Assembly: GCF_003018255.1 (NCBI RefSeq)
Contig: NZ_CP027440.1
DNA: 64,000 nt
DNA from: Escherichia coli
GTDB taxonomy: Bacteria; Pseudomonadota; Gammaproteobacteria; Enterobacterales; Enterobacteriaceae
Direction: 5' to 3' (one strand)
The translations under genes and the position numbers were made by a program. Below are positions 14,586-53,893 of the stretch, one piece after another. How positions within the stretch are numbered: position 1 is the stretch's first letter; each line of letters starts with the position of its first letter. The notes below the pieces were generated by a model. The model saw only the letters and a program-made list of their open reading frames with translations. It made no database searches and was not told the DNA's origin.

Positions 14586-16127
<1,542 letters not shown>

Positions 16128-16195
16128 CCTTAAAGAAGCGTACTTTGCAGTGCTCACACAGATTGTCTGATGAAAATGAGCAGTAAAACCTCTAC

Positions 16196-16272
<77 letters not shown>

Positions 16273-16314
16273 AATTTGCACGGCAAATTTGAAGAGGTTT
16301 TAACTACATGTTAT

Positions 16315-16390
16315 GGGGCTATAGCTCAGCTGGGAGAGCGCCTGCTTTGCACGCAGGAGGTCTGCGGTTCGATCCCGCATAGCTCCACCA
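16315..16390 (+). tRNA. alaT: tRNA-Ala (anticodon TGC) in the 16S-23S spacer
   Basis: ggggctatagctcagctgggagagcgcctgctttgcacgcaggaggtctgcggttcgatcccgcatagctccacca. Confidence 0.97.
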
Positions 16391-16564
16391 TCTCTGTAGT
16401 GATTAAATAAAAAATACTTCAGAGTGTACCTGCAAAGGTTCACTGCGAAGTTTTGCTCTTTAAAAATCTGGATCAAGCTGAAAATTGAAACACTGAACAA
16501 CGAAAGTTGTTCGTGAGTCTCTCAAATTTTCGCAACTCTGAAGTGAAACATCTTCGGGTTGTGA

Positions 16565-19470
<2,906 letters not shown>

Positions 19471-19567
19471 ACAACGCCGAAGATGTTTTGGCGGATGAGA
19501 GAAGATTTTCAGCCTGATACAGATTAAATCGACATGTCATAACGAGACGTGTTGATAAAACAGAATT

Positions 19568-19687
19568 TGCCTGGCGGCCTTAGCGCGGTGGTCCCACCTG
19601 ACCCCATGCCGAACTCAGAAGTGAAACGCCGTAGCGCCGATGGTAGTGTGGGGTCTCCCCATGCGAGAGTAGGGAACTGCCAGGCAT
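19568..19687 (+). rRNA. rrfA: 5S ribosomal RNA
   Basis: tgcctggcggccttagcgcggtggtcccacctgacccc ... gggaactgccaggcat; 120 nt. Confidence 0.97.
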
Positions 19688-25847: not shown

Positions 25848-28634
25848 ATGGTTCAGATCCCCCAAAATCCACTTATCCTTGTAGATGGTTCATCTTATCT
25901 TTATCGCGCATATCACGCGTTTCCCCCGCTGACTAACAGCGCAGGCGAGCCGACCGGTGCGATGTATGGTGTCCTCAACATGCTGCGCAGTCTAATCATG
26001 CAATATAAACCGACGCATGCAGCGGTGGTCTTTGACGCCAAGGGAAAAACCTTTCGTGATGAACTGTTTGAACATTACAAATCACATCGCCCGCCAATGC
26101 CGGACGATCTGCGTGCACAAATCGAACCCTTGCACGCGATGGTTAAAGCGATGGGACTGCCGCTGCTGGCGGTTTCTGGCGTAGAAGCGGACGACGTTAT
26201 CGGTACTCTGGCGCGGGAAGCCGAAAAAGCCGGGCGTCCGGTGCTGATAAGCACAGGCGATAAAGATATGGCGCAGCTGGTGACGCCAAATATTACGCTT
26301 ATCAATACCATGACGAATACCATCCTCGGCCCGGAAGAGGTGGTGAATAAGTACGGCGTGCCGCCAGAACTGATCATCGACTTCCTGGCGCTGATGGGTG
26401 ACTCCTCTGATAACATCCCTGGCGTACCGGGCGTTGGTGAAAAAACCGCGCAAGCATTGCTACAAGGTCTTGGCGGACTGGATACGCTGTATGCCGAGCC
26501 AGAAAAAATTGCTGGGTTGAGCTTCCGTGGCGCGAAAACAATGGCGGCGAAGCTCGAGCAAAACAAAGAAGTGGCTTATCTCTCTTACCAGCTGGCGACG
26601 ATTAAAACCGACGTTGAACTGGAGCTGACCTGTGAACAACTGGAAGTGCAGCCACCGGTGGCAGAAGAGTTGTTAGGGCTGTTCAAAAAGTATGAGTTCA
26701 AACGCTGGACTGCTGATGTCGAAGCGGGCAAATGGTTACAGGCCAAAGGGGCAAAACCAGCCGCGAAGCCGCAGGAAACCAGTGTTGTAGACGAAGCGCC
26801 AGAAGTGACGGCAACGGTGATTTCTTATGACAACTACGTCACCATCCTTGATGAAGAAACACTGAAAGCGTGGATTGCGAAGCTGGAAAAAGCGCCGGTA
26901 TTTGCATTTGATACCGAAACCGACAGCCTTGATAACATCTCTGCTAACCTGGTCGGGCTTTCTTTTGCTATCGAGCCAGGCGTAGCGGCATATATTCCGG
27001 TTGCTCATGATTATCTTGATGCGCCCGATCAAATCTCTCGCGAGCGTGCACTCGAGTTGCTAAAACCGCTGCTGGAAGATGAAAAGGCGCTGAAGGTTGG
27101 GCAAAACCTGAAATACGATCGCGGTATTCTGGCGAATTACGGCATTGAGCTGCGTGGGATTGCGTTTGATACCATGCTGGAGTCCTACATTCTCAATAGC
27201 GTTGCCGGGCGTCACGATATGGACAGCCTCGCGGAACGTTGGTTGAAGCACAAAACCATCACTTTTGAAGAGATTGCGGGTAAAGGCAAAAATCAACTGA
27301 CCTTTAACCAGATTGCCCTCGAAGAGGCCGGACGTTACGCCGCCGAAGATGCAGATGTCACCTTGCAGTTGCATCTGAAAATGTGGCCGGATCTGCAAAA
27401 ACACAAAGGGCCGTTGAACGTCTTCGAGAATATCGAAATGCCGCTAGTGCCGGTGCTTTCACGCATTGAACGTAACGGTGTGAAGATCGATCCGAAAGTG
27501 CTGCACAATCATTCTGAAGAGCTCACTCTTCGTCTGGCTGAGCTGGAAAAGAAAGCGCATGAAATTGCAGGTGAAGAATTTAACCTTTCCTCCACCAAGC
27601 AGTTGCAAACCATTCTGTTTGAAAAACAGGGAATTAAACCGCTGAAGAAAACGCCGGGTGGCGCGCCGTCAACGTCGGAAGAGGTACTGGAAGAACTGGC
27701 GCTGGACTATCCGTTGCCAAAAGTGATTCTGGAGTATCGTGGTCTGGCGAAGCTGAAATCGACTTACACCGACAAGCTGCCGCTGATGATCAACCCGAAA
27801 ACCGGGCGTGTGCATACCTCTTATCACCAGGCAGTAACTGCAACGGGACGTTTATCGTCAACCGATCCTAACCTGCAAAACATTCCGGTGCGTAACGAAG
27901 AAGGTCGTCGTATCCGCCAGGCGTTTATTGCGCCAGAGGATTATGTGATTGTCTCGGCGGACTACTCGCAGATTGAACTGCGCATTATGGCGCATCTCTC
28001 GCGTGACAAAGGCTTGCTGACCGCATTCGCGGAAGGAAAAGATATCCACCGGGCTACGGCGGCAGAAGTGTTTGGTTTGCCACTGGAAACCGTAACCAGC
28101 GAGCAACGCCGTAGCGCGAAAGCGATCAACTTTGGTCTGATTTATGGCATGAGTGCTTTCGGTCTGGCGCGGCAATTGAACATTCCACGTAAAGAAGCGC
28201 AGAAGTACATGGACCTTTACTTCGAACGCTACCCTGGCGTGCTGGAGTATATGGAACGCACCCGTGCTCAGGCGAAAGAGCAGGGCTACGTTGAAACGCT
28301 GGACGGACGCCGTCTGTATCTGCCGGATATCAAATCCAGCAATGGGGCTCGTCGTGCAGCGGCTGAACGTGCAGCCATTAACGCGCCAATGCAGGGAACC
28401 GCCGCCGACATTATCAAACGGGCGATGATTGCCGTTGATGCGTGGCTACAGGCTGAGCAACCGCGTGTGCGTATGATCATGCAGGTACACGATGAACTGG
28501 TATTTGAAGTTCATAAAGATGATGTCGATGCCGTCGCGAAGCAGATTCATCAACTGATGGAAAACTGTACCCGTCTGGATGTGCCGCTGCTGGTGGAAGT
28601 GGGGAGTGGCGAAAACTGGGATCAGGCGCACTAA
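25848..28634 (+). CDS. polA: DNA polymerase I (928 aa)
   Basis: ORF 25848..28634; 5' nuclease, 3'-5' exonuclease and polymerase motifs (e.g. [12 protein letters not shown]). Confidence 0.97.
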
Positions 28635-28782
28635 GATTCGCCTGAACATGCCCTTTTTTCGTAAGTAAGCAACATAAGCTGTCACGTTTTGTGATGGCTA
28701 TTAGAAATTCCTATGCAACAACTGAAAAAAAATTACAAAAAATGCTTTCTGAACTGAACAAAAAAGAGTAAAGTTAGTCGCG

Positions 28783-28891
28783 TAGGGTACAGAGGTAAGA
28801 TGTTCTATCTTTCAGACCTTTTACTTCACGTAATCGGATTTGGCTGAATATTTTAGCCGCCCCAGTCAGTAATGACTGGGGCGTTTTTTAT
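28783..28891 (+). ncRNA. spf: Spot 42 small regulatory RNA
   Basis: gtagggtacagaggtaagatgttctatctttcagacc ... cccagtcagtaatgactggggcgtttttta; intrinsic terminator; location just 3' of polA. Confidence 0.9.
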
Positions 28892-28957
28892 TGGGCGAAA
28901 GAAAAGATCCGTAATGCCTGATACGCCACATCCGGCACAAGCATTAAGGCAAGAAAA

Positions 28958-29605
28958 TTATTCGCCGTCCTGCGTTTCTTCTACAGGCTGCATCTCGCTA
29001 AACCAGGTATCCAGTTTCTGCCGCAGCTTGTCCACGCCTTGTTTCTTCAGCGAAGAAAACGTTTCAACCTGCACATCACCGTTAAACGCCAGCACCGCTT
29101 CACGCACCATATTCAATTGCGCTTTACGTGCGCCGCTTGCCAGTTTGTCCGCTTTGGTCAGCAGTACCAGCACGGCGATATTGCTGTCTACCGCCCACTC
29201 AATCATCTGCTGATCCAAATCTTTCAGCGGATGGCGAATATCCATTAGCACCACCAGACCTTGCAGGCTCTGACGTTTTTCGAGGTACTCGCCGAGCGCG
29301 CGCTGCCATTTGCGCTTCATCTCTTCCGGGACTTCCGCATAACCGTACCCAGGCAAGTCAACCAGACGCTTGCCGTCAGCCACTTCAAACAGGTTGATAA
29401 GCTGGGTGCGCCCCGGGGTTTTTGAGGTACGAGCCAGGCTTTTCTGGTTAGTCAGCGTGTTCAGCGCGCTGGATTTACCTGCGTTGGAACGGCCTGCAAA
29501 AGCCACTTCAATTCCGGTATCGGAAGGTAGGTGGCGAATATCAGGCGCACTCATCACAAAATGCGTCTGTTGATAATTCAAATTAGTCAAAGCGGTCGTC
29601 TCCAT
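28958..29605 (-). CDS. engB: Ribosome biogenesis GTPase EngB/YihA
   Basis: ORF 28958..29605 minus; G1 motif GRSNAGKSS; exact start uncertain (possibly a non-ATG start a few codons downstream of the ORF-track Met). Confidence 0.88.
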
Positions 29606-29860
29606 CAGTCAAAGCTTTGCGGCGATTATACCTGAACCATAATAAAAGGCGGATTTTTCGGCGTGAGCGTTGTAAGTAAAAGCCATATGCTTTGTGAGAC
29701 ATTGCCGATAGTCTTTATGCGAAATAGCAGAGAAAATTCTGCGACGTATGTCAAATAAGCTATATAAATCAGTGAATTGCTTTTATATAAAACTCTGAAA
29801 ATGTGCAAATACTGATGGCGGTTGATTGTTTATTTAAAGCAAAGGCGTAAAGTAGCACCC

Positions 29861-30104
29861 ATAGAGCGAGGACGCTAACAGGAACAATGACTCAGGATGA
29901 GGGTCAGGAGCGCCAGGAGGCGAAGACAGAGGATTGTCAGGAAGATAAACGTCCGGAGACGTAATTAAACGGAAATGGAATCAACACGGATTGTTCCGGC
30001 TAATGGAAAAACAGGGTGTGTTGGCGGCCTGCAAGGATTGTAAGACCCGTTAAGGGTTATGAGTCAGGAAAAAAGGCGACAGAGTAATCTGTCGCCTTTT
30101 TTCT
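29861..30104 (+). ncRNA. csrC: CsrC small RNA (CsrA-sequestering)
   Basis: About 245 nt with many GGA motifs in predicted loops (caggaa, caggatga, caggag, caggagg, caggaag, acggattg, caaggattg, tcaggaa), ending in terminator gcgacagagtaatctgtcgccttttttc; position between engB and yihI. Confidence 0.85.
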
Positions 30105-30171
30105 TTGCTTGCTTTCTGTTAGATTCCGCCGCAAATCTATACTGAATAAAACGGCTAAAAGACGAACCATT

Positions 30172-30681
30172 ATGAAACCATCATCTTCAAACTCACGCAG
30201 CAAAGGTCATGCAAAAGCGCGTCGAAAAACACGCGAGGAGCTGGATCAGGAAGCTCGTGACCGTAAGCGTCAGAAAAAACGTCGTGGTCATGCGCCGGGC
30301 AGCCGCGCAGCGGGCGGTAACACCACGTCAGGCAGCAAAGGCCAGAACGCACCGAAAGATCCACGTATTGGCAGTAAAACCCCTATTCCATTGGGCGTGA
30401 CTGAAAAAGTCACCAAACAGCACAAACCGAAGAGTGAGAAACCTATGCTTTCACCGCAGGCGGAGTTGGAGTTACTGGAAACGGATGAGCGTCTGGATGC
30501 GCTGCTGGAACGTCTGGAAGCAGGCGAAACCCTGAGCGCCGAAGAGCAATCCTGGGTGGATGCCAAACTGGATCGTATTGATGAGTTGATGCAGAAACTC
30601 GGCCTCTCTTATGACGATGACGAAGAAGAGGAAGAAGACGAGAAGCAAGAAGACATGATGCGTCTGCTGCGGGGCAACTAA
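30172..30681 (+). CDS. yihI: Der GTPase-activating protein YihI (169 aa), basic N-terminus and acidic C-terminus
   Basis: ORF-track frame 30109..30681; start placed at [19 protein letters not shown]. Confidence 0.88.
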
Positions 30682-35211: not shown

Positions 35212-35238
35212 AGAAAAAAGCCCATGCAGAGATGGGCT
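35212..35238 (-). terminator. Terminator after glnA
   Basis: Minus-strand hairpin cccatctctgcatggg followed by a T-run. Confidence 0.55.
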
Positions 35239-35298
35239 GAAAGTTTCCACGGCAACTAAATCCCGGCGTTGTTGCGCCGGGTAGTACAACTTCAACTA

Positions 35299-36790: not shown

Positions 36791-36930
36791 AAGCGAAAAC
36801 TGTGCCAACTTTTAAATTGCCCCTAAAAGGCGTTATCATGCTTAACATCGTGCAAAAGGGCTGCACCATGATGTGAATGTTGCACCAATATAGTGCTTCA
36901 ATGGAAACATTAAGCACCATATTGGTGCAA
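36791..36930 (-). promoter_or_regulatory. glnA control region: sigma-54 promoter glnAp2 (TGGCAC-N5-TCGCT) and upstream NtrC enhancer sites
   Basis: Minus-strand ttggcacagttttcgct at 36791-36808; NtrC-like palindromes tgcaccaatatagtgct (36881-36897) and gcaccatattggtgca (36914-36929). Confidence 0.75.
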
Positions 36931-37080
36931 TGACCTTTGGATAACCCTTTTTATGCTCCGTGAAAGCGATCACAAAGGGACTCTGCAATACTTGTTTGCG
37001 GAGGATGTTTGTGATCCTGTTTTGTAGTGCGATTAATCCGTGTACAATAACGCGCTATTTCTAATGCCTGAGGCAAAGTT

Positions 37081-42186: not shown

Positions 42187-42245
42187 TTAGTGGCCGGATG
42201 TGCTTAATCCGGCCAACGAAAACCGTATCAACCGAAGTTTCAATT

Positions 42246-43034
42246 TCAGGATACTTCTTGCTCGGCAACCACCAGTTCAACATTCTCTTCACTTAACAAC
42301 TGGCAGAAAGAATTGGGAGGCGGGGCATCAGTAAAAAAAGCCCTGACATTCCGTGCATTGCCAATTGAAACGGCAGCAGACGCGGTAAACTTCGTATGAT
42401 CGGCCACTAACAATGTATTCCGCGCATGTTTAATCATCGTTCTCGCGACTAACGCTTCATTGACATCAAATTCCAGTAGGGTGCCGTCATGTTCAATGGC
42501 ACCTATACTGGTGATTAAATAATCTGCGCGGAAGCCTTCAATAAAATCCACGGCTCCTGGGCCGATAATCCCACCGTTATGAGCGCGTAAAGTGCCTCCC
42601 GGCACCATCACTTCAATATCCTGATTCTTATAAAGAATCTGTGCCACACGCAGGCTATTAGTGATAATGCGTAAATCACGCCGGTTGAGTAATGCCCTGG
42701 CAACGGCTTCTACGGTTGTACCGATGGTGATAAAGACGGTACAGCGTTCGGGAAGGTAATCGGCGACTGCCTCAGCGATCGCCCGTTTCTCGGCGGTGAG
42801 CGAAAGTTCCCGTTGCTCAAAAGCGGTATTCATGACGCTGGAGACGCGCCCGGCCCCTCCATGATGACGGGTGATCAAGCCCTGCTCACTGAGTTTTCGG
42901 ATATCCCGGCGCACGGTTTGCGTTGAAACATCCAGCAGTTGTGCCAGTTCTTCAATATTCATATAACCGCGTTCTGCGATTAGATGAACGAGTTGGTCAT
43001 GGCGTGGATTACCTGTCACTTCGATGATACTCAT
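42246..43034 (-). CDS. DeoR-family transcriptional regulator, YihW/CsqR-like (262 aa)
   Basis: ORF 42246..43034 minus; N-terminal HTH (MNIEELAQLLDVSTQTVRRDIRKL) plus sugar-phosphate-binding domain; adjacent to kinase/aldolase genes. Confidence 0.8.
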   Translation of the reverse strand: MSIIEVTGNPRHDQLVHLIAERGYMNIEELAQLLDVSTQTVRRDIRKLSEQGLITRHHGGAGRVSSVMNTAFEQRELSLTAEKRAIAEAVADYLPERCTVFITIGTTVEAVARALLNRRDLRIITNSLRVAQILYKNQDIEVMVPGGTLRAHNGGIIGPGAVDFIEGFRADYLITSIGAIEHDGTLLEFDVNEALVARTMIKHARNTLLVADHTKFTASAAVSIGNARNVRAFFTDAPPPNSFCQLLSEENVELVVAEQEVS

Positions 43035-43073
43035 GAATACTCCCTTGCCCCTCCTCGGTAGATGTTTACCATT

Positions 43074-43970
43074 TTACGCATAAAGTGACAAAAATGATTC
43101 GGTTTGCTCACGATTAGGAATGCCGGCCCGACCGCCAGGCTGGGTACATTTCATCGCGGCAACCGCACTGGCAAAACGAATAGCCTCTTTTGTTGGCATT
43201 TTTTCTGCCAACGCTACCGCGAGTGCGCCGTGAAAAACATCGCCTGCTCCAGTGGTATCAACCACATTGACAGAAAATGCCTCCTGTTGACACAAATGAC
43301 CATCTTCAATCCACAACGATCCTTCAGAACCCAGCGTAACATACACTTTACCTGCTGTTTGTGTCGTTGCCTGGAACAAACCTTCTTCAGGTGACTGCAG
43401 GCCAGTCATGCGTTTCAGCCCAGGTGTTGAGAACACGGCGTGATCGGCAAGCGCGACAAGTGGAGAAATATCCTGCGGTGTCATATCGGCGTCTAAAAGC
43501 GTTGTCACACCCGCAAGGCGCGCTAGCGAGAATGCTTTTTCAGTACCGCTATGCCAGCGAACATCGGCCAGAATCAGATCATAACGAGAGAAATCGATCG
43601 CTTCTAACCATTCGGCATCAGTACCGAGATCAGGACTTGGATAATTAACGATAATCCGTTCGCCATGCTGATCAACGAGGATCGCTGATTGCGACGAACG
43701 GGCGTTAGGATATCGGCGGCAAAATGCGGTATTGACGCCCCAACCCTCAAGTTCTGCAAGTAAGGTATTTCCACAACTGTCATCGCCGACGCGACCGATG
43801 AAATCAACCTCCACGCCAAGCTTTGCGATTGCAACAGCGGCTGTTGCTGCCGGGCCGCCACCAATCTCAAGATAATGATTTGCCTGATATTTCCCGCCGC
43901 CCTCCGGCAGAGTGGGCAAAGAATAAATCCTGTCCTGAACTGTGATACCCACGCATGCAATTCTGGTCAT
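43074..43970 (-). CDS. PfkB-family sugar kinase, YihV (sulfofructose kinase)-like
   Basis: ORF-track frame 43074..44021 minus; start probably at [13 protein letters not shown] (43970); PfkB signature [14 protein letters not shown]. Confidence 0.8.
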
Positions 43971-44142
43971 ATTTGTCTTGTCCTGTTTAATTTTGTCGTC
44001 TTTGGTCAATTTAAATGACACAAATGATCAAATTAGTGATGCGTGTCGTGTTTTTGAACATAAATTACAAATATGCTCAAAAACAGACGAAAACGAATTT
44101 TCAATTGTCATTATTTTGTCAATGTCAGACAGGAGAGTATTC
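43971..44142. promoter_or_regulatory. Divergent promoter/operator region between the kinase gene and the reductase-aldolase operon
   Basis: AT-rich intergenic DNA with reiterated tttgtc-containing motifs (ttttgtcgtcttt, ttttgtcaatgtc, atttgtcttgtcc), a pattern expected for DeoR-type operators; RBS aggagag before 44143. Confidence 0.4.
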
Positions 44143-45021
44143 ATGGCAACCATTGCATTTCTCGGGCTGGGGCAGATGGGTAGCCCAATGGCTAACAATC
44201 TATTGCAAAAAGGGCATTCATTGCAGGTATTTGATGTCAATGCACAGGCCGTCGATGTGCTAGTTACGCAGGGGGCCACTGCGGCACAAACCCCAGCGGA
44301 AGCAGCAGCAGGCGCTGAATTTATCATCACTATGCTTCCCAATGGTGACATTGTTCGACAGGTTCTGTTGGGGGAAAAAGGCGTCTGTGAGGCTGTTTCA
44401 TCTGACGCGTTATTGATTGATATGTCGACTATTCATCCCTTACAGACCGATGCATTAATACGGGAGTTACAAGAAAAAGGCATCAGTATGATGGACGCTC
44501 CCGTGGGCAGAACGTCCGTGAATGCGATTGATGGCACATTGCTGATTTTAGCGGGTGGCACTGATGAGCAGATTGCACGTGCACGCCCGATTCTCATGTG
44601 CATGGGTAATGAACTGGTCGAGGCTGGCGGCCCAGGAATGGGGATCCGCGTGAAGCTAATTAACAACTATATGAGCATTGCGCTTAATGCGCTGTCCTCC
44701 GAGGCCGCTGTGTTATGTGAGTCACTGGGATTAAATCTTGATGTCGCAATTAAGGTGATGAGTGGTACGGCAGCAGGGAAAGGACATTTTACGACCACCT
44801 GGCCTGGCAAAGTGCTGAAAGGCGATCTTTCACCCGCCTTCATGGTGGATCTGGCGTTGAAAGATCTGCGTATTGCAGTTGACGTCGCTCGGGAGACGGG
44901 GGCACCGCTCAATATGGGGATTGCAGCAGAAAGTTATTACGCCGCAGCAAGTCAAGACGGCAAAGGGCGGCAGGATTGGAGTGCCCTGCTAAATCAGGTT
45001 CGCCAGCAGGCTGGTCTTTAA
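44143..45021 (+). CDS. NAD(P)-dependent beta-hydroxyacid dehydrogenase family reductase, YihU (sulfolactaldehyde reductase)-like (292 aa)
   Basis: ORF-track frame 43942..45021; start placed at ATG 44143 after RBS; Rossmann motif [13 protein letters not shown]. Confidence 0.8.
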
Positions 45022-45045
45022 TTTTATCTATTAACAGGAGTTTCT

Positions 45046-45933
45046 ATGTCATCCCACTTCACCCCATTTACGCTGAAAGATATCTCCCGCCCAGGTGGTG
45101 GATTCGCCATGTTAGCTGTCGATCAGCGTGAGGCCATGCGCCTGATGTTTGCGGCAGCAGGGCAGCCAAAACCCATCGCCGACAGTGTACTCACCGATTT
45201 TAAAGTTGCCGCGACCCGAATCCTTTCTCCTTATGCTTCTGCCGTTCTGGCGGATAAACAATTTTGTCTTGAACAAATAGTCGAGCAGGGCGCTGTGGCT
45301 AATTCTTGCGGCCTGATTGTCGCTGCCGATCTTTTTATCCCAGGTAATGGCATCCCGGTTGATAGCGTTGAAATAGATATGTCCGTCGACCCGCATAAAG
45401 CCCGTGAAATGGGGGCTAAGGCAATGAAATTACTTGTACTCTGGCGTGAAGATGAACCCGCAGAGGAACGTCTGGCAATGGTTGATAAATTTGTTCGTCG
45501 CTGCCGTAGTGCCGGGCTGGTTAGCATTATTGAACCTGTGGTGCGTCCACCTCGTCGCGGTTGGGACTTTGATCGTGAAAGCGCCATTGTTGCCGCCGCC
45601 GCAGAGCTTGGTGGAACAGAGGCTGATCTTTACAAAGCCGAGATGCCATTAGGGGGCAAAGGCGATGAAAAAACCTTACTTGCCGCCTGTCAGCAACTTA
45701 ACGATCAGATGAAGATGCCGTGGGTAATTCTTTCTTCTGGCGTTGATGCCGATATTTTTGGCCGTGCAGTAAGTATTGCCATGAAAGGTGGTGCGTCGGG
45801 CTTCCTGGCTGGACGAGCGGTATGGGCGTCGGTTGTTGGTGCACAAGATCCACAAACCATGCTGCGCGATGTCTCCGTTCCACGCTTGCAACGGCTGGCT
45901 GAAATTGTCGATGAAGGTATCGCGCAACGCTAA
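45046..45933 (+). CDS. Class I aldolase of the LacD/YihT (sulfofructose-phosphate aldolase) family (295 aa)
   Basis: ORF 45046..45933; [13 protein letters not shown] motif region characteristic of YihT/LacD-like aldolases. Confidence 0.8.
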
Positions 45934-45965
45934 TCCCCTATGGATATCGATTCTGGAGAATAACA

Positions 45966-46976
45966 ATGGATAAAATTACCCAGGTTTTATTTTCAGATAT
46001 TGGGAAAGTCACCACTCAATATGTTGAAGTACCACACCAGCAACTTAAACCGCACGAAGTACGGATTGCGCCCGTGTTCTACGGGATATGCGGTTCGGAT
46101 CTGCATGTTCTGAAAGGCGGTCATCCGTTTGCCAAGCCGCCTGTCGTCCCCGGTCATGAAATTGCAGCGCGCGTTACGGAAGTGGGCAGCGACGTTAAAA
46201 ATGTACAGCCGGGCGATCATGTTGTGGTCGATCCCATCATGGCTTGCATGGAATGCCGAGCCTGCAAAGCAGGACGTTTTAATCTTTGTGAACCACCGCA
46301 GGTTGCTGGTTTTCGCGCACCGGGCTTTGCTCGCTCACAACACATTGTTCCTGCGCGTAATTGCCATGTCGCACCAGCCTCTTTACCGCTAAAAGTGTTG
46401 GCCTTTGCCGAACCGGCGGCTTGTGCTCGTCACTGCGTTAACCGAATGCCGAAAGCTTCTCTGGAAAGCGTACTGGTGATTGGTGCCGGAACGATAGGCT
46501 TATCCATCGTGCAGGCACTGCGCATTATGGGGGCAGGTAAGATTACCGTGATTGAACCTGACGCTGCCAAACGCGCGCTGGCGTTAAAGCTGGGCGCAGC
46601 AGAAGTTTGGGCACCAGGTGAGCTGGCCGCAGATGTGAGATTTACGGGGGCGATTGATGTCGTTGCAGCGCAGGCCACGCTTAACGATGCATGTACCCGT
46701 GTATATGCCGGAGGCACCGTCGTGTGCATGGGCGTACCAAGTGGGCCGCGTGAAATACCATTACCGATGATGCAACGTTTCGAGCGTGACTTGCTCAACT
46801 CTGGCATGTACATCCCTGAAGATTTCGATGCTGTTATCGAATGGCTGGCGGATGGGCGGTTTGATACCAGTGAACTGGTTACCGATTTATTTGCCATTGA
46901 GGATGCAGCGGCGGCATTCGAACGCGCGCAGCAAAATGACTCCATAAAGGTCATGCTGCAATTTGCGCCGGAATGA
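45966..46976 (+). CDS. Zinc-dependent medium-chain alcohol/polyol dehydrogenase (sorbitol/threonine dehydrogenase-like, 336 aa)
   Basis: ORF 45966..46976; catalytic Zn ligands (GICGSDLH, GHE) and structural Zn cysteines (CMECRACKAGRFNLC); Rossmann motif GAGTIG. Confidence 0.8.
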   Translation: MDKITQVLFSDIGKVTTQYVEVPHQQLKPHEVRIAPVFYGICGSDLHVLKGGHPFAKPPVVPGHEIAARVTEVGSDVKNVQPGDHVVVDPIMACMECRACKAGRFNLCEPPQVAGFRAPGFARSQHIVPARNCHVAPASLPLKVLAFAEPAACARHCVNRMPKASLESVLVIGAGTIGLSIVQALRIMGAGKITVIEPDAAKRALALKLGAAEVWAPGELAADVRFTGAIDVVAAQATLNDACTRVYAGGTVVCMGVPSGPREIPLPMMQRFERDLLNSGMYIPEDFDAVIEWLADGRFDTSELVTDLFAIEDAAAAFERAQQNDSIKVMLQFAPE

Positions 46977-47045
46977 TTTTCTAAATCTCTGTCTGGCGCT
47001 GCGTCACGTCAGCGCCACCCTACAACAATTAAAAAGGACACTGCG

Positions 47046-48479
47046 ATGAGTCAAATCACCAGTCCTGCAACTTATTCAATTAGTCGGCCACAGGACGTAA
47101 TTGATATTGTTAATAAGAACTCTGCAATCAACACCAGTATCGGCGTTATTTTTATTGCTTTGGGCGGCATATTGATTGATGCCTACCAGGTGGCGATGGT
47201 GGGGTTTGGTAATAAATACATTGCCGCTCAATTCGGCATTTCTCCGGGTCTTGCTGCGACCGTCAATGCGTCAGTATTAATCGCCGCGTTAATTGGCGGT
47301 TTATTAGCGAACCGAGTAATAAACCGCTTTGGGCAAAAGCGGGCATTTATTATTGGCATGGGGCTGTGCACCATCGGTGCTGCAGCGGTAGCTATTGCTC
47401 CCAGTATCTGGTGGGTGCTGGTGTGCCGCGTCATCATGGGCTTTGGTTTAGGCATCGACTTCCCTTTGGCAACTAATGCCGTGGCAGAGCTTCGTGGTTC
47501 AACGTCGAAGAAAACCGGAACGTCGGTCAACCTCTGGCAAATGGCCTGGTATGTTTCGACAACCGTTGTTTATTTGGTGCTTTTGCCGCTGCTTCTGTCG
47601 GGTATCGCTGAAGAACAATTGTGGCGTTACGGAATATTCATCGGAGCTATTTTTGCAGTCATCTTCATGATTTTGCGTTACTTCTTTATTGGTGAATCCG
47701 CAATGTGGGCCGCACGCGTTGGGCGTTACCAGGAAGCGTGCGACATTCTGGGAAAACGTTATGGTGTTCAGGCTCGCGTTGCGGCATCGGGTACAACAGA
47801 AGCGAAATTCTCGGAAAAAGCAGAGAATAAATACAGTGGTGGATATGGCATCTTATTTAATGATCGTTACCGCAAACGCACCATTCTTGGCTGTGTCGTG
47901 GCAACCATGCAGGCGTGGCAATATAACGCCGTAGGTGTTTATCTTCCTCTTACGTTGGCGGGAATAATAAGTGGCGGGCTTACTGGCGCGTTGACCGGTT
48001 CTGCCGTCGTGAATGCCCTTTGTGGGGTGACAGGTGGGATGATCGGCTCGTTTATTCTCCAACGACTGGGTACTCGCCGACAGTCGATGTATGGATTTGC
48101 TGTTGTGACCTTAGCATTGCTGTCGTTAGGCGCACTGGCAACGACTAATCCTTGGCTGTCTTTAGGGTTATTGGGATCAATTATTTTCTTCCATTCAGCG
48201 GGTCCTGGTGGGCTGGGCATGACCATTGCCACACTCTCTTATCCTCCCGCTATTCGCCCTACTGGGGTCGGATTTGCCCGCGCTATTATGCGCACAGGGG
48301 CAATTGCAGGACTCATTTTCTGGCCGATGCTGTGGGGTGCGTTGAAAACTGAAGCGTTTTACTGGTTGGCAATCGTGCCATTCCTGGGATTCCTAACCTG
48401 TGTATTGATTAATTGGGAACCACTGGGTGCAAATGTTGATGCTGAGGACGCAGAGGTTCTGGCTGAATTGAAGAAATAA
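47046..48479 (+). CDS. MFS transporter (477 aa)
   Basis: ORF 47046..48479; about 12 TM helices; RBS aaggac. Confidence 0.75.
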   Translation: MSQITSPATYSISRPQDVIDIVNKNSAINTSIGVIFIALGGILIDAYQVAMVGFGNKYIAAQFGISPGLAATVNASVLIAALIGGLLANRVINRFGQKRAFIIGMGLCTIGAAAVAIAPSIWWVLVCRVIMGFGLGIDFPLATNAVAELRGSTSKKTGTSVNLWQMAWYVSTTVVYLVLLPLLLSGIAEEQLWRYGIFIGAIFAVIFMILRYFFIGESAMWAARVGRYQEACDILGKRYGVQARVAASGTTEAKFSEKAENKYSGGYGILFNDRYRKRTILGCVVATMQAWQYNAVGVYLPLTLAGIISGGLTGALTGSAVVNALCGVTGGMIGSFILQRLGTRRQSMYGFAVVTLALLSLGALATTNPWLSLGLLGSIIFFHSAGPGGLGMTIATLSYPPAIRPTGVGFARAIMRTGAIAGLIFWPMLWGALKTEAFYWLAIVPFLGFLTCVLINWEPLGANVDAEDAEVLAELKK

Positions 48480-48480
48480 T

Positions 48481-48514
48481 TTAATGCGCATCGGCTTAAG
48501 CCGATGCGCATTAA
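48481..48514. repeat. Perfect 34-bp palindrome between the two transporter genes
   Basis: ttaatgcgcatcggcttaagccgatgcgcattaa read directly; no downstream T-tract. Confidence 0.6.
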
Positions 48515-48577
48515 TTCAAACTGCCCACGTTTAGTGGTTCGTATCCCAGATTTCTCGCCTACCAGGAGAGGAAAATT

Positions 48578-49927
48578 ATGTCTGAAAAGTTACCCGCACC
48601 GCGTGAAGGGCTTTCCGGTAAAGCCATGAGACGTGTCGTTATGGGCAGTTTCGCAGGCGCGTTAATGGAATGGTATGACTTCTTTATTTTTGGCACGGCA
48701 GCAGGACTGGTATTTGCACCGCTGTTTTATCCAGACAGCGATCCTTTTATAGGTCTTATAGCTTCCTTTGCGACCTTTGGTGTCGGTTTTCTGACTCGTC
48801 CTTTAGGGGGCATCGTCTTTGGTCATTTTGGCGATAAAATCGGGCGAAAAATAACACTTATCTGGACGCTGGCTATTGTCGGTTGCTCCACATTTTTGAT
48901 TGGTTTTATTCCGACGTATCAGGAAATTGGCATTTGGGCACCGCTTGTATTAATGGTGCTGCGTTTGATTCAGGGCTTTGGTCTTGGTGGCGAGTACGGT
49001 GGAGCGGCATTGATGACCATAGAATCAGCGCCCGAATCCCGACGCGGATTTTTAGGTTCACTCCCGCAAACGGCTGCGTCTGTGGGTATTATGCTGGCAA
49101 CCGGTATTTTTGCTCTCTGTAACCATTTTCTTACTTCGGAGCAGTTTCTCTCCTGGGGATGGCGCATTCCGTTTTGGCTTTCTGCGGTGATGTTGATCGT
49201 TGGGCTGTTTATCCGCCTACATACCGAAGAAACGCTGGATTTTCAAAAGCAAAAAACGACGAATAATAAAGAAAAGTCCGTTCCTCCGTTGATTGAATTA
49301 TTCAAAAAACATCCACGAAATATTTTATTGGCACTGGGTGCGAGGCTGGCGGAAAGTGTCTCCTCTAATATTATTAATGCCTTTGGTATTGTCTATATTT
49401 CCAGCCAATTAGCATTGTCGCGAGATATTCCCCTGACGGGTATGTTGATTGCCTCGGCGATCGGTATTTTCAGTTGTCCATTGGTTGGATGGTTATCAGA
49501 TCGTATAGGTCAAAAAAGTCTGTATTTGTCGGGAGCAGGATTTTGTGTCCTGTTCGCGTTTCCTTTCTTCTTATTATTGGATAGCAAAAGTACGCTCATC
49601 ATCTGGTGCAGTATGATCCTCGGCTACAACTTAGGTCCGACGATGATGTTTGCCGTGCAGCCAACACTTTTCACCCGCATGTTCGGTACCAAAGTACGAT
49701 ATACCGGCCTTTCTTTTGCTTATCAATTTTCCGCGATTCTTGGCGGACTAAGCCCCCTTATCGCCTCAAGTTTGCTGGCGCTAGGGGGAGGAAAACCGTG
49801 GTATGTCGCTCTGTTTTTATTTGCTGTCTCAGTTCTTTCCTTTGTTTGCGTCTGGCTGATTGAGCCGACCGATGAACAAGAAACCGCTTCTTACCGCTAC
49901 ATCAGGGAACAATCTCATGAAAACTGA
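48578..49927 (+). CDS. MFS transporter of the metabolite:H+ symporter (MHS, ProP/KgtP-like) type (449 aa)
   Basis: ORF 48578..49927; MHS-like N-terminal motifs (GALMEWYDFFIFG, GHFGDKIGRK). Confidence 0.75.
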   Translation: MSEKLPAPREGLSGKAMRRVVMGSFAGALMEWYDFFIFGTAAGLVFAPLFYPDSDPFIGLIASFATFGVGFLTRPLGGIVFGHFGDKIGRKITLIWTLAIVGCSTFLIGFIPTYQEIGIWAPLVLMVLRLIQGFGLGGEYGGAALMTIESAPESRRGFLGSLPQTAASVGIMLATGIFALCNHFLTSEQFLSWGWRIPFWLSAVMLIVGLFIRLHTEETLDFQKQKTTNNKEKSVPPLIELFKKHPRNILLALGARLAESVSSNIINAFGIVYISSQLALSRDIPLTGMLIASAIGIFSCPLVGWLSDRIGQKSLYLSGAGFCVLFAFPFFLLLDSKSTLIIWCSMILGYNLGPTMMFAVQPTLFTRMFGTKVRYTGLSFAYQFSAILGGLSPLIASSLLALGGGKPWYVALFLFAVSVLSFVCVWLIEPTDEQETASYRYIREQSHEN

Positions 49928-50804
49928 ACGAAAAAACGAGCATTACCTGGCGCTACAACAGGCGTTTGACGCGCCATGGCCTGGGCCTGTAGGAGAGTTA
50001 GTGATGCTGGAAAAAGGCAATATTCACCTGCAGATTTATCCGCATGATGGTGCCAGGATAACCTCGTTAAAGGCATTTGGTTCTGAAGTATTACGCCAAT
50101 GGCAGCCGCAGCGCAGAGCTTTTCAGTATGGCTGTTTCCCAATGGTGCCGTGGGCAGGGCGACTGGGGAATGCGACGCTGAATGCTGGTGGGCAATGTTA
50201 TTCTTTACCCGCCAATAAACCACCACATGCGTTGCATGGTATGGCTTGTTACTCAACGTGGGAAATCATCGACAAAACAGCAGATTCCCTGACTTTACGT
50301 ATGCCCCTGGCTTCACCGTGGCCCTGGCAAGGGGAAGTGATTCAGACTTTTTTGCTGGAGAACGATGCGCTGGTTTTGCAACTGGAAGTCCATTCATATG
50401 CCGATACATTCCCGGCCTCCGCAGGCTGGCATCCGTGGTTTGCGAAAAAGCTGACTCCGCAAAATACAGAATCGTTGCAGGTGCTTTTTGATGCGGACTG
50501 GCAAGAAGAAGCGGGTAGTGATGAACTGCCAACTGGAAATCGTATCTCTCCTCAAGTCGGTCCCTGGGATGACTGTTTTGGTTTTTATGACGGGGTGAAG
50601 GTTAAGTTACTGTGGCCTGGTAAACTCGCGATGACCATGACCTCTTCTGCAAACAGTCTGGTGGTATTTGATAAACAGCCCGATGCCACCTGTATTAACC
50701 CGCTGACTCAGGCACCTAACGCAATAAATCTAACGCCGGAATTTGTGACACCAGATAAGCCGCTGGTCATCGAAACTCGTTGGCAATTTACACCTGAATC
50801 TTAA
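49917..50804 (+). CDS. Aldose 1-epimerase (mutarotase)-family protein, YihR-like
   Basis: ORF-track frame 49860..50804; start placed at ATG 49917 (MKTERKNE) after an RBS, overlapping the upstream stop by 11 nt. Confidence 0.7.
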   Translation: MKTERKNEHYLALQQAFDAPWPGPVGELVMLEKGNIHLQIYPHDGARITSLKAFGSEVLRQWQPQRRAFQYGCFPMVPWAGRLGNATLNAGGQCYSLPANKPPHALHGMACYSTWEIIDKTADSLTLRMPLASPWPWQGEVIQTFLLENDALVLQLEVHSYADTFPASAGWHPWFAKKLTPQNTESLQVLFDADWQEEAGSDELPTGNRISPQVGPWDDCFGFYDGVKVKLLWPGKLAMTMTSSANSLVVFDKQPDATCINPLTQAPNAINLTPEFVTPDKPLVIETRWQFTPES

Positions 50805-50811
50805 CCATTCA

Positions 50812-50850
50812 TCTATTGCGAAAAAGACAGTGAAATTACTCTGCTTTTTC
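50812..50850 (+). terminator. Terminator hairpin after the cassette operon
   Basis: ttgcgaaaaagacagtgaaattactctgctttttcgcaa inverted repeat. Confidence 0.6.
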
Positions 50851-50944
50851 GCAATCAGCATCACAAGATTACCCTTATTGCCACATAGCCAAACCCATCC
50901 TTTCCCGCTACAGTTAATTTCTTGTGGCGCGAAAGGAGGCAAAA

Positions 50945-52844: not shown

Positions 52845-53830
52845 GCCAGCTTCCAGGGTTGTCACGGGAAACAAGAGAGAGTATCGCTATGTATCACCTT
52901 CGGGTTCCACAAACAGAAGAAGAATTAGAGCGTTACTATCAGTTTCGCTGGGAAATGTTGCGTAAGCCCCTGCATCAACCGAAAGGTTCGGAACGCGACG
53001 CGTGGGATGCGATGGCGCATCACCAGATGGTCGTCGACGAGCAGGGTAATCTGGTGGCGGTAGGCCGACTGTATATTAATGCCGACAATGAAGCGTCCAT
53101 TCGCTTTATGGCCGTTCATCCCGACGTGCAGGACAAAGGGTTAGGAACGCTGATGGCGATGACCCTCGAATCTGTGGCGCGTCAGGAAGGTGTTAAGCGC
53201 GTGACCTGTAGCGCCCGCGAAGACGCGGTGGAGTTTTTCGCCAAGCTGGGGTTTGTTAATCAGGGAGAAATCACCACGCCAACCACCACGCCGATTCGCC
53301 ATTTTTTGATGATTAAACCCGTTGCCACTCTGGATGATATTTTGCATCGCGGCGACTGGTGCGCGCAGCTGCAACAGGCGTGGTATGAACACATCCCGCT
53401 GAGTGAAAAAATGGGCGTGCGCATTCAGCAATATACCGGGCAAAAATTTATCACCACCATGCCGGAAACAGGCAATCAGAATCCGCATCACACGCTGTTT
53501 GCCGGGAGTTTATTCTCGCTGGCAACGCTCACCGGTTGGGGGCTTATCTGGCTGATGCTGCGCGAACGCCACCTCGGCGGAACGATTATTCTGGCGGATG
53601 CGCATATCCGCTACAGCAAGCCGATTAGCGGCAAACCTCATGCGGTAGCCGACCTTGGTGCCTTAAGCGGCGATCTCGACCGTCTGGCGCGCGGACGAAA
53701 AGCACGGGTGCAGATGCAAGTAGAAATCTTTGGCGACGAGACGCCGGGTGCAGTGTTTGAAGGCACGTATATCGTTCTGCCCGCGAAGCCATTTGGCCCG
53801 TATGAAGAGGGCGGGAACGAAGAAGAGTAG
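52841..53830 (+). CDS. yiiD: GNAT acetyltransferase / thioesterase-fold fusion protein YiiD (FabY, 329 aa)
   Basis: ORF 52841..53830; 4-nt overlap with dtd. Confidence 0.85.
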
Positions 53831-53893
53831 GGGCGTTTTACTTGACTGAAAAGGTTTTCAATCTGAAAACCTTTTCTGGGCCCTGGTCCGGAG

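What the first reader, a model, noticed from the sequence alone, without database searches (positions are those of the whole stretch)
28783..28891. Spot 42 sRNA downstream of polA
The sequence matches the spf RNA as I remember it, including its terminator; its promoter region (about 28700-28780) should carry the CRP site.
Basis: partly seen in the sequence, partly recalled or inferred. Interest (0 to 1): 0.2.

Follow-up and report, generated by a model that had tools for sequence, protein, structure and literature searches.

The report
Spot 42 small RNA gene (spf)
This is the ordinary, already well-studied E. coli gene for Spot 42, a 109-base regulatory RNA (which also encodes the 15-residue peptide SpfP) that helps cells prefer glucose; it sits in its usual place after polA and is letter-for-letter identical to the laboratory strain K-12.

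Summary
Confirmed and ordinary. The Rfam Spot_42 model (RF00021) matches window 28772-28890 (+) over its full length at 122.8 bits, against a gathering score of 80 (E 3.6e-24). Window 28782-28892 is 100% identical to spf (b3864) of E. coli K-12 MG1655.

The gene lies in the canonical polA - spf - yihA - csrC context.

It has the expected parts:
- a 5' stem-loop, a single-stranded linker, a small hairpin and a GC-rich terminator hairpin followed by six T;
- the 15-codon spfP reading frame (MFYLSDLLLHVIGFG, 28800-28847).

The published E. coli spf CRP site (TTTTGTGATGGCTATTAGAAAT) is present exactly at 28687-28708, centred at -84.5.

The RNA is at least 99% identical in 5423 of the 5424 complete E. 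coli genomes that carry it. Its first 41 nt are almost unchanged in Enterobacterales, Vibrionales and Aeromonadales.

The differences from K-12 found in the 351 bp compared all lie outside the RNA: one extra C after polA, G to A at -40, and a 58-bp deletion between two REP elements downstream. Nothing new: already known, low interest.

The parts
25848..28634 (+). polA (DNA polymerase I), the upstream neighbour; context only
   Evidence: A 928-aa ORF, annotated polA in the identical record JNE23-011 and in K-12. No terminator-like site was found between its stop codon and spf.
28687..28708 (.). CRP-cAMP binding site of the spf promoter (TTTTGTGATGGCTATTAGAAAT), centred at -84.5 from +1
   Evidence: Exact match to the E. 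coli spf CRP site quoted in PMC3295665. The core 28690-28705 has 2 mismatches to TGTGAN6TCACA. TGTGA starts at -92 in 43 and at -91 in 6 of 74 Enterobacterales loci, while its flanks vary. Binding and repression were not tested here.
28723..28742 (+). A-rich block TGAAAAAAAATTACAAAAAA (-59 to -40), read here as UP-element-like; it contains the G-to-A difference from K-12 at 28742 (-40)
   Evidence: The consensus tgaAAa.aaactacaAAAAat.cTTT is conserved at the same distance from +1 in Enterobacterales, Vibrionales and Aeromonadales. The UP-element role is an inference from position and composition only.
28745..28751 (+). Weak -35 region (CTTTCTG; CTTT conserved)
   Evidence: Conserved cTTT at -37..-34. 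TTTCTG lies 17 bp upstream of the -10 hexamer and matches TTGACA at only 2 of 6 positions; the sigma-70 consensus scan reports no promoter. Inferred.
28769..28774 (+). -10 hexamer TAAAGT (-13 to -8)
   Evidence: GTA.AGTT is conserved at -14..-7 in Enterobacterales, with TACAtT / TACAGT at the same place in Vibrionales and Aeromonadales. Its position relative to the annotated K-12 +1 fits. Inferred.
28782..28890 (+). spf transcript, Spot 42 RNA (109 nt; RefSeq K-12 annotates to 28892)
   Evidence: RF00021 at 122.8 bits; 100% identical to K-12 b3864; at least 99% identical in 5423 of 5424 E. coli genomes.
28782..28829 (+). Stem-loop 1 (nt 1-48), which holds the Shine-Dalgarno GAGG (28792-28795) and the spfP AUG
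   Evidence: MFE fold and the same consensus structure over 24 sequences. Its pairs are invariant or change on one side only (G-U/G-C, U-A/U-G).
28800..28847 (+). spfP ORF: 15 codons plus UGA, MFYLSDLLLHVIGFG
   Evidence: Translation. Same position as K-12 spfP b4837. The ORF is kept at 15 codons in 118 of 121 sequences from three orders. Synthesis of the protein and its binding to CRP are reported in PMC8916003.
28830..28841 (+). Single-stranded linker AAUCGGAUUUGG (nt 49-60), one of the target-pairing / Hfq-accessible regions
   Evidence: Unpaired in the MFE, the centroid and the consensus fold. The functional assignment comes from the literature summarised in PMC8916003 and from my own knowledge of Beisel & Storz 2011, which I could not read here.
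28842..28858 (+). Stem-loop 2 (nt 61-77), which contains the spfP stop codon UGA
   Evidence: Folds. Loop length varies between taxa while the GGCU/AGCC stem is kept.
28859..28889 (+). Rho-independent terminator: hairpin 28859-28882, G28883, T6 28884-28889
   Evidence: Terminator scan and fold. Seven of its pairs show compensatory two-sided changes across taxa.
28916..28936 (.). Single chimeric REP element (GCCTGATACGCCACATCCGGC) left by a 58-bp deletion relative to K-12; not part of the RNA
   Evidence: Alignment with K-12 and FDAARGOS_536. In FDAARGOS_536 both REPs carry GATACGCCA, so the deletion lies between 9-bp direct repeats. The 44-bp inter-REP spacer is found in 5193 genomes, against 5424 that carry spf.
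28958..29590 (-). yihA (engB) GTPase gene, the convergent downstream neighbour; context only
   Evidence: Annotated in the identical record and in K-12; ORF found.

Best explanation
Window 28782-28890 (+) is the spf gene of an Escherichia coli chromosome. It is transcribed from its own promoter, 147 bp after the polA stop codon, into the 109-nt Hfq-dependent small RNA Spot 42. When glucose is present and cAMP is low, CRP does not repress the promoter and the RNA accumulates. Its single-stranded regions pair with the ribosome-binding regions of mRNAs for uptake and use of non-preferred carbon sources (galK, srlA and others) and repress them, which closes a coherent feed-forward loop with CRP. 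The same transcript is a very short mRNA: GAGG and AUG, partly hidden in stem-loop 1, direct synthesis of the 15-aa SpfP. SpfP binds CRP and blocks activation of some CRP-dependent promoters, more so at high temperature. Shown here: identity, structure, synteny, an intact ORF, presence of the published CRP site and evolutionary conservation. Taken from the literature and not tested here: Hfq dependence, targets, CRP repression and SpfP activity. How a CRP site centred at -84.5 represses is not settled by my data. My inference is interference with RNA-polymerase alpha-CTD contacts at the conserved A-rich block (-59 to -40).
For: RF00021 full-length hit at 122.8 bits against a gathering score of 80. 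100% identity to K-12 spf and spfP. Canonical yihG-polA-spf-yihA-csrC-yihI-hemN order. Stable fold, z -5.1, and a terminator. At least 99% identity in 5423 of 5424 E. coli genomes. In 120 loci from Enterobacterales, Vibrionales and Aeromonadales, nt 1-41 are unchanged apart from one substitution in one locus and one divergent 5' end. Only 6 of those 41 positions were fixed by my search pattern. Where enough flanking DNA was retrieved, polA lies upstream in nearly all Enterobacterales and Vibrionales loci, and yihA lies downstream in those and in most Aeromonas loci. The terminator stem has compensatory changes at 7 pairs. The published CRP site is present exactly, and its TGTGA half-site sits at a fixed position in 49 of 74 Enterobacterales loci. 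The function of Spot 42 and SpfP is as described in PMC8916003 and PMC10187061.
Against: Nothing in the sequence argues against it. Limits: expression, Hfq binding, target pairing and CRP repression cannot be tested from DNA. The simple sigma-70 scan finds no promoter at this site. The CRP core motif at 2 mismatches is no more frequent in the window than chance (17 found, 26 expected), so the site is supported by identity to the published site and by conservation, not by motif strength. Conservation at the 19 bases fixed in my search pattern is there by construction.
Confidence: 0.97

Rival explanations
1. The stretch is essentially the 3' end of the polA transcript: polA read-through ends at the spf terminator, and the 109-nt species is a processing product, not an independently transcribed gene.
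For: No terminator-like site was found between the polA stop (28634) and spf; the only one in 28500-29100 is the spf terminator. The sigma-70 consensus scan finds no promoter in the gap. polA sits immediately upstream in nearly all Enterobacterales and Vibrionales loci.
Against: Conserved promoter-like blocks lie at fixed distances from +1: GTA.AGTT at -14..-7, an A-rich block at -59..-40 and a CRP half-site at -92. Aeromonas loci keep the RNA and these blocks, yet polA was not found in the up to ~6.8 kb of upstream DNA retrieved for them. K-12 annotates +1 at the equivalent base. CRP-dependent repression of spf transcription is reported in the literature. Read-through may add to the primary transcript but does not replace it.
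Confidence: 0.02
2. The locus acts only as a tiny protein-coding gene (spfP), and the RNA has no regulatory role of its own.
For: An intact SD-AUG-15 codons-UGA. The ORF length is kept in 118 of 121 sequences. Some PGAP records annotate only a CDS here.
Against: The nucleotide sequence is invariant at synonymous positions and outside the ORF (nt 1-18) across three orders, which coding constraint alone does not explain. The stop codon is lost in 3 loci while the RNA is otherwise kept. The RNA matches a structured-RNA covariance model and carries compensatory changes. Base-pairing activity was separated experimentally from the protein's activity (PMC8916003).
Confidence: 0.01

Closest known systems
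E. coli K-12 MG1655 spf (b3864, Spot 42) with spfP (b4837)
   Same: Every base of the RNA, 28782-28892, is the same. So are the ORF, the terminator, the CRP site sequence, the -10 region and the flanking genes.
   Different: All differences found in the 351 bp compared lie outside the RNA: one extra C at about 28651 after the polA stop, G to A at 28742 (-40), and a 58-bp deletion that fuses two REP elements about 30 bp past the terminator. Both A and G occur at -40 in other Enterobacteriaceae.
Spot 42 of Vibrionaceae and Aeromonadaceae (Rfam RF00021 members; Aliivibrio salmonicida spf, PMC3295665)
   Same: nt 1-41 are identical. They share the three-hairpin layout and a 15-codon ORF (MFYLSDLLFHVIGLG...GFG or ...ECG). 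yihA lies downstream, and in Vibrionales polA lies upstream.
   Different: A few substitutions in nt 42-60, a shorter hairpin-2 loop and different terminator stems. No TGTGA half-site is conserved near -84.5 in these orders, in line with the 'weak' CRP-site resemblance reported for vibrios.
Other dual-function sRNAs (e.g. SgrS/SgrT, AzuCR, VcdRP)
   Same: One short transcript both base-pairs with mRNAs and encodes a small protein acting in the same carbon-metabolism pathway (PMC8916003, PMC8672173).
   Different: No sequence relationship. In Spot 42 the ORF overlaps the base-pairing regions, and the protein targets the RNA's own transcriptional repressor, CRP.

Membership tests
Spot 42 RNA (Rfam RF00021; spf) | Sequence-plus-structure match to the family covariance model at or above the curated gathering score | tested here: met
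   122.8 bits against a gathering score of 80, E 3.6e-24, model 1-115 of 115, window 28772-28890 (+).
Spot 42 RNA (Rfam RF00021; spf) | A ~109-nt RNA with a long 5' stem-loop, a single-stranded linker, a small hairpin and a Rho-independent terminator | tested here: met
   MFE and centroid folds, terminator scan, and the consensus fold of 24 sequences with 7 compensatory pairs in the terminator. These are computational predictions only.
Spot 42 RNA (Rfam RF00021; spf) | Genomic position between polA and yihA (engB) | tested here: met
   polA 25848-28634 (+) and yihA 28958-29590 (-). The same order is seen in nearly all Enterobacterales and Vibrionales loci that had enough flanking DNA.
Spot 42 RNA (Rfam RF00021; spf) | Identity of the target-pairing single-stranded regions with the characterised K-12 RNA | tested here: met
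   0 differences over 111 nt.
Spot 42 RNA (Rfam RF00021; spf) | Hfq binding and repression of galK, srlA and other mRNAs by base pairing | not testable with these tools
   Needs an experiment. Inferred from identity to the K-12 RNA, for which it is reported (PMC8916003).
CRP-cAMP-repressed promoter of spf | Presence of the described CRP binding site upstream of +1 | tested here: met
   TTTTGTGATGGCTATTAGAAAT (PMC3295665) is found exactly at 28687-28708. TGTGA is fixed at -92/-91 in 49 of 74 Enterobacterales loci.
CRP-cAMP-repressed promoter of spf | CRP binds the site and lowers transcription | not testable with these tools
   Literature only. The primary paper, Polayes 1988, could not be read.
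SpfP small protein (dual-function RNA) | SD + AUG + 15 codons + stop inside Spot 42, encoding MFYLSDLLLHVIGFG | tested here: met
   Translation of 28800-28847. Same coordinates as K-12 b4837. GAGG lies 4 nt before the AUG.
SpfP small protein (dual-function RNA) | The peptide is synthesised and binds CRP | not testable with these tools
   Reported for K-12 in PMC8916003; not tested for this strain.

The most novel reading that the evidence does not exclude
The most novel reading not excluded concerns mechanism, not identity. CRP may repress spf from a phase-fixed distal site (-84.5, conserved in Enterobacteriaceae and relatives) by disturbing alpha-CTD contacts with an A-rich UP-like block (-59 to -40). 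That block is conserved from Aeromonas and Vibrio to E. coli, whereas the CRP half-site is not obvious in the first two. If so, the UP-driven promoter would be ancestral and CRP control a later, enterobacterial addition. A lesser variant: the -40 G-to-A change or the REP deletion of this lineage alters Spot 42 levels.
Probability: 0.2. Interest if true: 0.25.

Novelty: already known. Interest (0 to 1): 0.05.

Why it matters
It matters little beyond correct annotation. Spot 42 has been known since the 1970s, and its target regulon, CRP feed-forward loop and SpfP peptide are published. The practical point is that many RefSeq E. coli records list nothing at this position, only a CDS ('spfP', or the odd product name 'spot 42 RNA, inhibition of DNA synthesis'), or only neighbouring polA. 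The RNA should be annotated here as an ncRNA at 28782-28890 with spfP at 28800-28847. The cross-species promoter comparison gives a small, testable hint about how CRP represses this promoter.

Tried and rejected
1. The sigma-70 consensus scan of 28500-29100 found no promoter. The spf promoter has a poor -35, so its elements were placed by distance from the annotated +1 and by conservation.

2. A search for TGTGAN6TCACA with up to 2 mismatches found 17 sites in the window against 26 expected by chance. Motif strength alone is therefore no evidence for the CRP site.

3. A permissive Rfam scan of 28500-30200 on both strands found nothing further at spf except a sub-threshold NsiR1 hit on the terminator (20.9 bits against a gathering score of 39), which I dismissed as a generic hairpin match.

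4. Polayes et al. 1988 (PMC211256) and Beisel & Storz 2011 (PMC3072601) are not held in the library. The footprint position of CRP and the exact limits of pairing regions I-III therefore rest on secondary sources and my own knowledge.

5. A full-text search for 'Spot 42' together with 'UP element' returned no paper.

6. I considered and rejected three readings: a chance match, a polA 3'-UTR fragment only, and a coding-only gene (see the rival explanations).

7. Automatic trimming of homologues at the first T5 run cut seven sequences inside T-rich terminator loops. Only full-length sequences were used for the consensus fold.

Full report
**1. Observation**

Reading 28400-29300 shows GTAGGGTACAGAGGTAAGATGTTC...GACTGGGGCGTTTTTTA beginning at G28782 and ending at A28890.

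- A scan of the whole window against Rfam 15 at gathering thresholds reports RF00021 Spot_42 at 28772-28890 on the + strand. The score is 122.8 bits against a gathering score of 80, E 3.6e-24, covering model positions 1-115 of 115. The model includes about 10 nt upstream of the RNA.
- A more permissive scan of 28500-30200 on both strands adds nothing at this locus except a sub-threshold hairpin match to the terminator.
- The 109-nt stretch folds at -40.6 kcal/mol, against -23.1 +/- 3.4 for 200 dinucleotide-preserving shuffles (z -5.1; none folds as well).
- The only intrinsic-terminator-like site in 28500-29100 is its 3' hairpin, 28858-28883, followed by TTTTTT.

The stated coordinates (28783-28891) are one base to the right of the true 109-nt RNA (28782-28890).

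**2. Identity and context**

A 351-bp query around the locus matches 5424 of 5426 complete E. coli genomes. Aligned to K-12 MG1655, window 28782-28892 is identical at every position to spf (b3864, 4049899-4050009), and 28800-28847 corresponds to spfP (b4837). Translation of that stretch gives MFYLSDLLLHVIGFG*.

The neighbours are those of K-12:
- yihG;
- polA (25848-28634, 928 codons);
- spf;
- yihA on the opposite strand (28958-29590);
- csrC (Rfam 276 bits, 29861-30114);
- yihI and hemN.

A megablast map shows that window 15055-62272 is collinear with K-12 4036000-4085900 at about 97-98.7% identity, with a few indels and one replaced gene cluster. The window is thus the rrnA-polA-glnA-fdoG region of a non-K-12 E. 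coli chromosome.

**3. Anatomy (window coordinates)**

- Stem-loop 1 is nt 1-48 (28782-28829). It contains the Shine-Dalgarno GAGG (28792-28795) and the spfP AUG (28800).
- A single-stranded linker, AAUCGGAUUUGG, is nt 49-60 (28830-28841).
- Stem-loop 2 is nt 61-77 (28842-28858) and includes the UGA stop of spfP (28845-28847).
- The terminator hairpin is nt 78-101 (28859-28882), followed by G and U6 (28884-28889).
- Upstream, TAAAGT at 28769-28774 lies at -13 to -8. An A-rich block, TGAAAAAAAATTACAAAAAA, occupies 28723-28742 (-59 to -40). The best -35 candidate is poor (TTTCTG, 17-bp spacer), which is why the consensus scan finds no promoter.
- The CRP site that the literature gives for E. coli spf, 5'-TTTTGTGATGGCTATTAGAAAT-3' (PMC3295665), is present exactly at 28687-28708 and is centred at -84.5.

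**4. Evidence from elsewhere**

Within E. coli, the 111-nt RNA is at least 99% identical in 5423 of the 5424 genomes that carry it.

One scan of the species-representative genome collection used a degenerate pattern with 19 fixed bases. In these loci:

- nt 1-41 of the RNA are unchanged apart from one substitution in one locus and one divergent 5' end. Only 6 of those 41 positions were fixed by the pattern. The three orders differ by only a few substitutions in nt 42-60.
- The 15-codon ORF is kept in 118 of 121 sequences. Two Yersinia and one Vibrio have lost the stop codon.
- Where enough flanking DNA was retrieved, polA lies 146-277 bp upstream on the same strand in nearly all Enterobacterales and Vibrionales loci, and yihA lies convergently downstream. 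Aeromonas keeps yihA, but polA was not found in the upstream DNA retrieved.
- In a consensus fold of 24 diverse sequences, the three hairpins are recovered. Seven terminator pairs show two-sided compensatory changes. Stem 1 changes only by wobble-compatible one-sided substitutions.
- Invariance at synonymous positions and outside the ORF shows constraint at the RNA level in addition to any coding constraint.

For the promoter:
- TGTGA starts at -92 in 43 and at -91 in 6 of 74 Enterobacterales loci, although the flanking bases differ. That supports a functional CRP half-site at a fixed phase.
- No such conservation is seen in Vibrionales or Aeromonadales.
- The A-rich block, the CTTT and the -10 region are conserved in all three orders.

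**5. Mechanism**

Shown here:
- This is an intact, canonical spf gene with its promoter elements, CRP site, ORF and terminator.

Taken from the literature (PMC8916003, PMC10187061, PMC7591399):
- Transcription is repressed by CRP-cAMP.
- The Hfq-dependent RNA base-pairs with and represses mRNAs for non-preferred carbon sources, which forms a feed-forward loop with CRP.
- The RNA is also translated into SpfP, which binds CRP and blocks activation of some CRP-dependent promoters, more so at 42 C, when stem-loop 1 is thought to open.
- In Salmonella, Spot 42 also raises CsrC, whose gene lies about 1 kb downstream in this window.

Inferred by me, not shown:
- The core promoter has a weak -35 and a deeply conserved A-rich block at the UP-element position. 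The CRP site is distal, at -84.5. CRP may therefore repress by disturbing alpha-CTD-DNA contacts, not by occluding the core promoter.
- I could not read the primary promoter paper, and a text search for 'Spot 42' plus 'UP element' found nothing.

**6. Differences from K-12**

The differences found in the 351 bp compared all lie outside the RNA:
- One extra C at about 28651.
- G to A at 28742 (-40). Both bases occur among other Enterobacteriaceae.
- A 58-bp deletion after 28919 that fuses two REP elements into one chimeric REP (28916-28936).
  - In FDAARGOS_536 both REPs carry GATACGCCA, so the deletion lies between 9-bp direct repeats.
  - The spacer removed by the deletion is detectable in 5193 genomes, against 5424 that carry spf. 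About 4% of E. coli genomes therefore lack it.

None of these touches the transcript.

**7. Verdict**

This is the already known Spot 42 / SpfP gene in its ordinary place and ordinary form. Novelty: already known. Interest: very low (0.05). The only mildly useful by-products are an annotation point and the promoter-conservation pattern. On annotation, many RefSeq records list nothing, or only a CDS, at this position.

Noticed in passing
window 28916-28936 (junction within 28920-28928): A 58-bp deletion relative to K-12 lies between two REP elements just downstream of the spf terminator and leaves one chimeric REP. It sits between 9-bp direct repeats (GATACGCCA). The deleted spacer is undetectable in about 231 of the 5424 E. 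coli genomes that carry spf.
   Followed up: partly
window 28723-28742 and 28745-28748; loci L004-L123: An A-rich block (tgaAAa.aaactacaAAAAat) plus CTTT upstream of spf is conserved at a fixed distance from +1 in Enterobacterales, Vibrionales and Aeromonadales. The CRP TGTGA half-site (-92) is conserved only in Enterobacterales.
   Followed up: partly
window 28635-28781: No intrinsic terminator is predicted between the polA stop codon and spf, so polA transcripts may run into spf and end at its terminator.
   Followed up: no
window 29861-30114 (+); L001 5288-5454: The CsrC sRNA gene is intact (Rfam 276 bits). In RefSeq records JNE23-011 and FDAARGOS_536, PGAP places a 'frameshifted hypothetical protein' pseudo-CDS in the same yihA-yihI gap. 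In JNE23-011 it lies inside the csrC span. The spfP CDS there is labelled 'spot 42 RNA, inhibition of DNA synthesis'.
   Followed up: partly
window 42234-50878: The K-12 ompL-yihO...yihW (sulfoquinovose) cluster, 11.9 kb, is replaced by an 8.6-kb cluster that megablast does not match. It encodes a DeoR regulator, a pfkB-type sugar kinase, a YihU-equivalog sulfolactaldehyde reductase (579 bits), a tagatose-bisphosphate-type aldolase, a Zn-dependent dehydrogenase and two MFS transporters. A further 314-aa ORF (49860-50804) matched no NCBIfam family.
   Followed up: partly
window 35238-35287: The glnA 3' region holding the GlnZ sRNA is about 110 bp shorter than in K-12 (K-12 4056452-4056613 has no megablast counterpart).
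   Followed up: no
window 53830-55841: About 2 kb stands where K-12 has about 0.5 kb, after fabY. It includes an ORF (53894-54877, - strand) that resembles hormone-sensitive-lipase / acetyl-esterase family enzymes.
   Followed up: partly
window 36892-36999 (+): An Rfam ES222 sRNA hit (133 bits) lies in the glnA-bipA intergenic region. It contains a near-consensus CRP core, CGTGAAAGCGATCACA, at 36959-36974.
   Followed up: no
window 62420-62435: A perfect CRP core palindrome, TGTGACAAATATCACA, lies just beyond the stretch mapped to K-12 (which ends at 62272, near the fdoG start). What is annotated there was not checked.
   Followed up: no
window 14586-19685; 16458-16557; 61554-61612 (-): The rrnA operon is present: 16S, two tRNAs (ileT and alaT in K-12), 23S and 5S. 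There is a StyR-44 hit just upstream of the 23S gene, and the fdoG selenocysteine insertion element (SECIS_3, 84 bits).
   Followed up: no
E. coli genome collection: Two of the spf matches lie on records labelled as plasmids, and 2 of 5426 complete genomes have no spf match at all.
   Followed up: no
loci L042, L078 (Yersinia thracica, Y. artesiana) and L063 (Vibrio ruber): The spfP stop codon is lost, which extends the ORF to 24 or more codons, while the rest of Spot 42 is unchanged.
   Followed up: no
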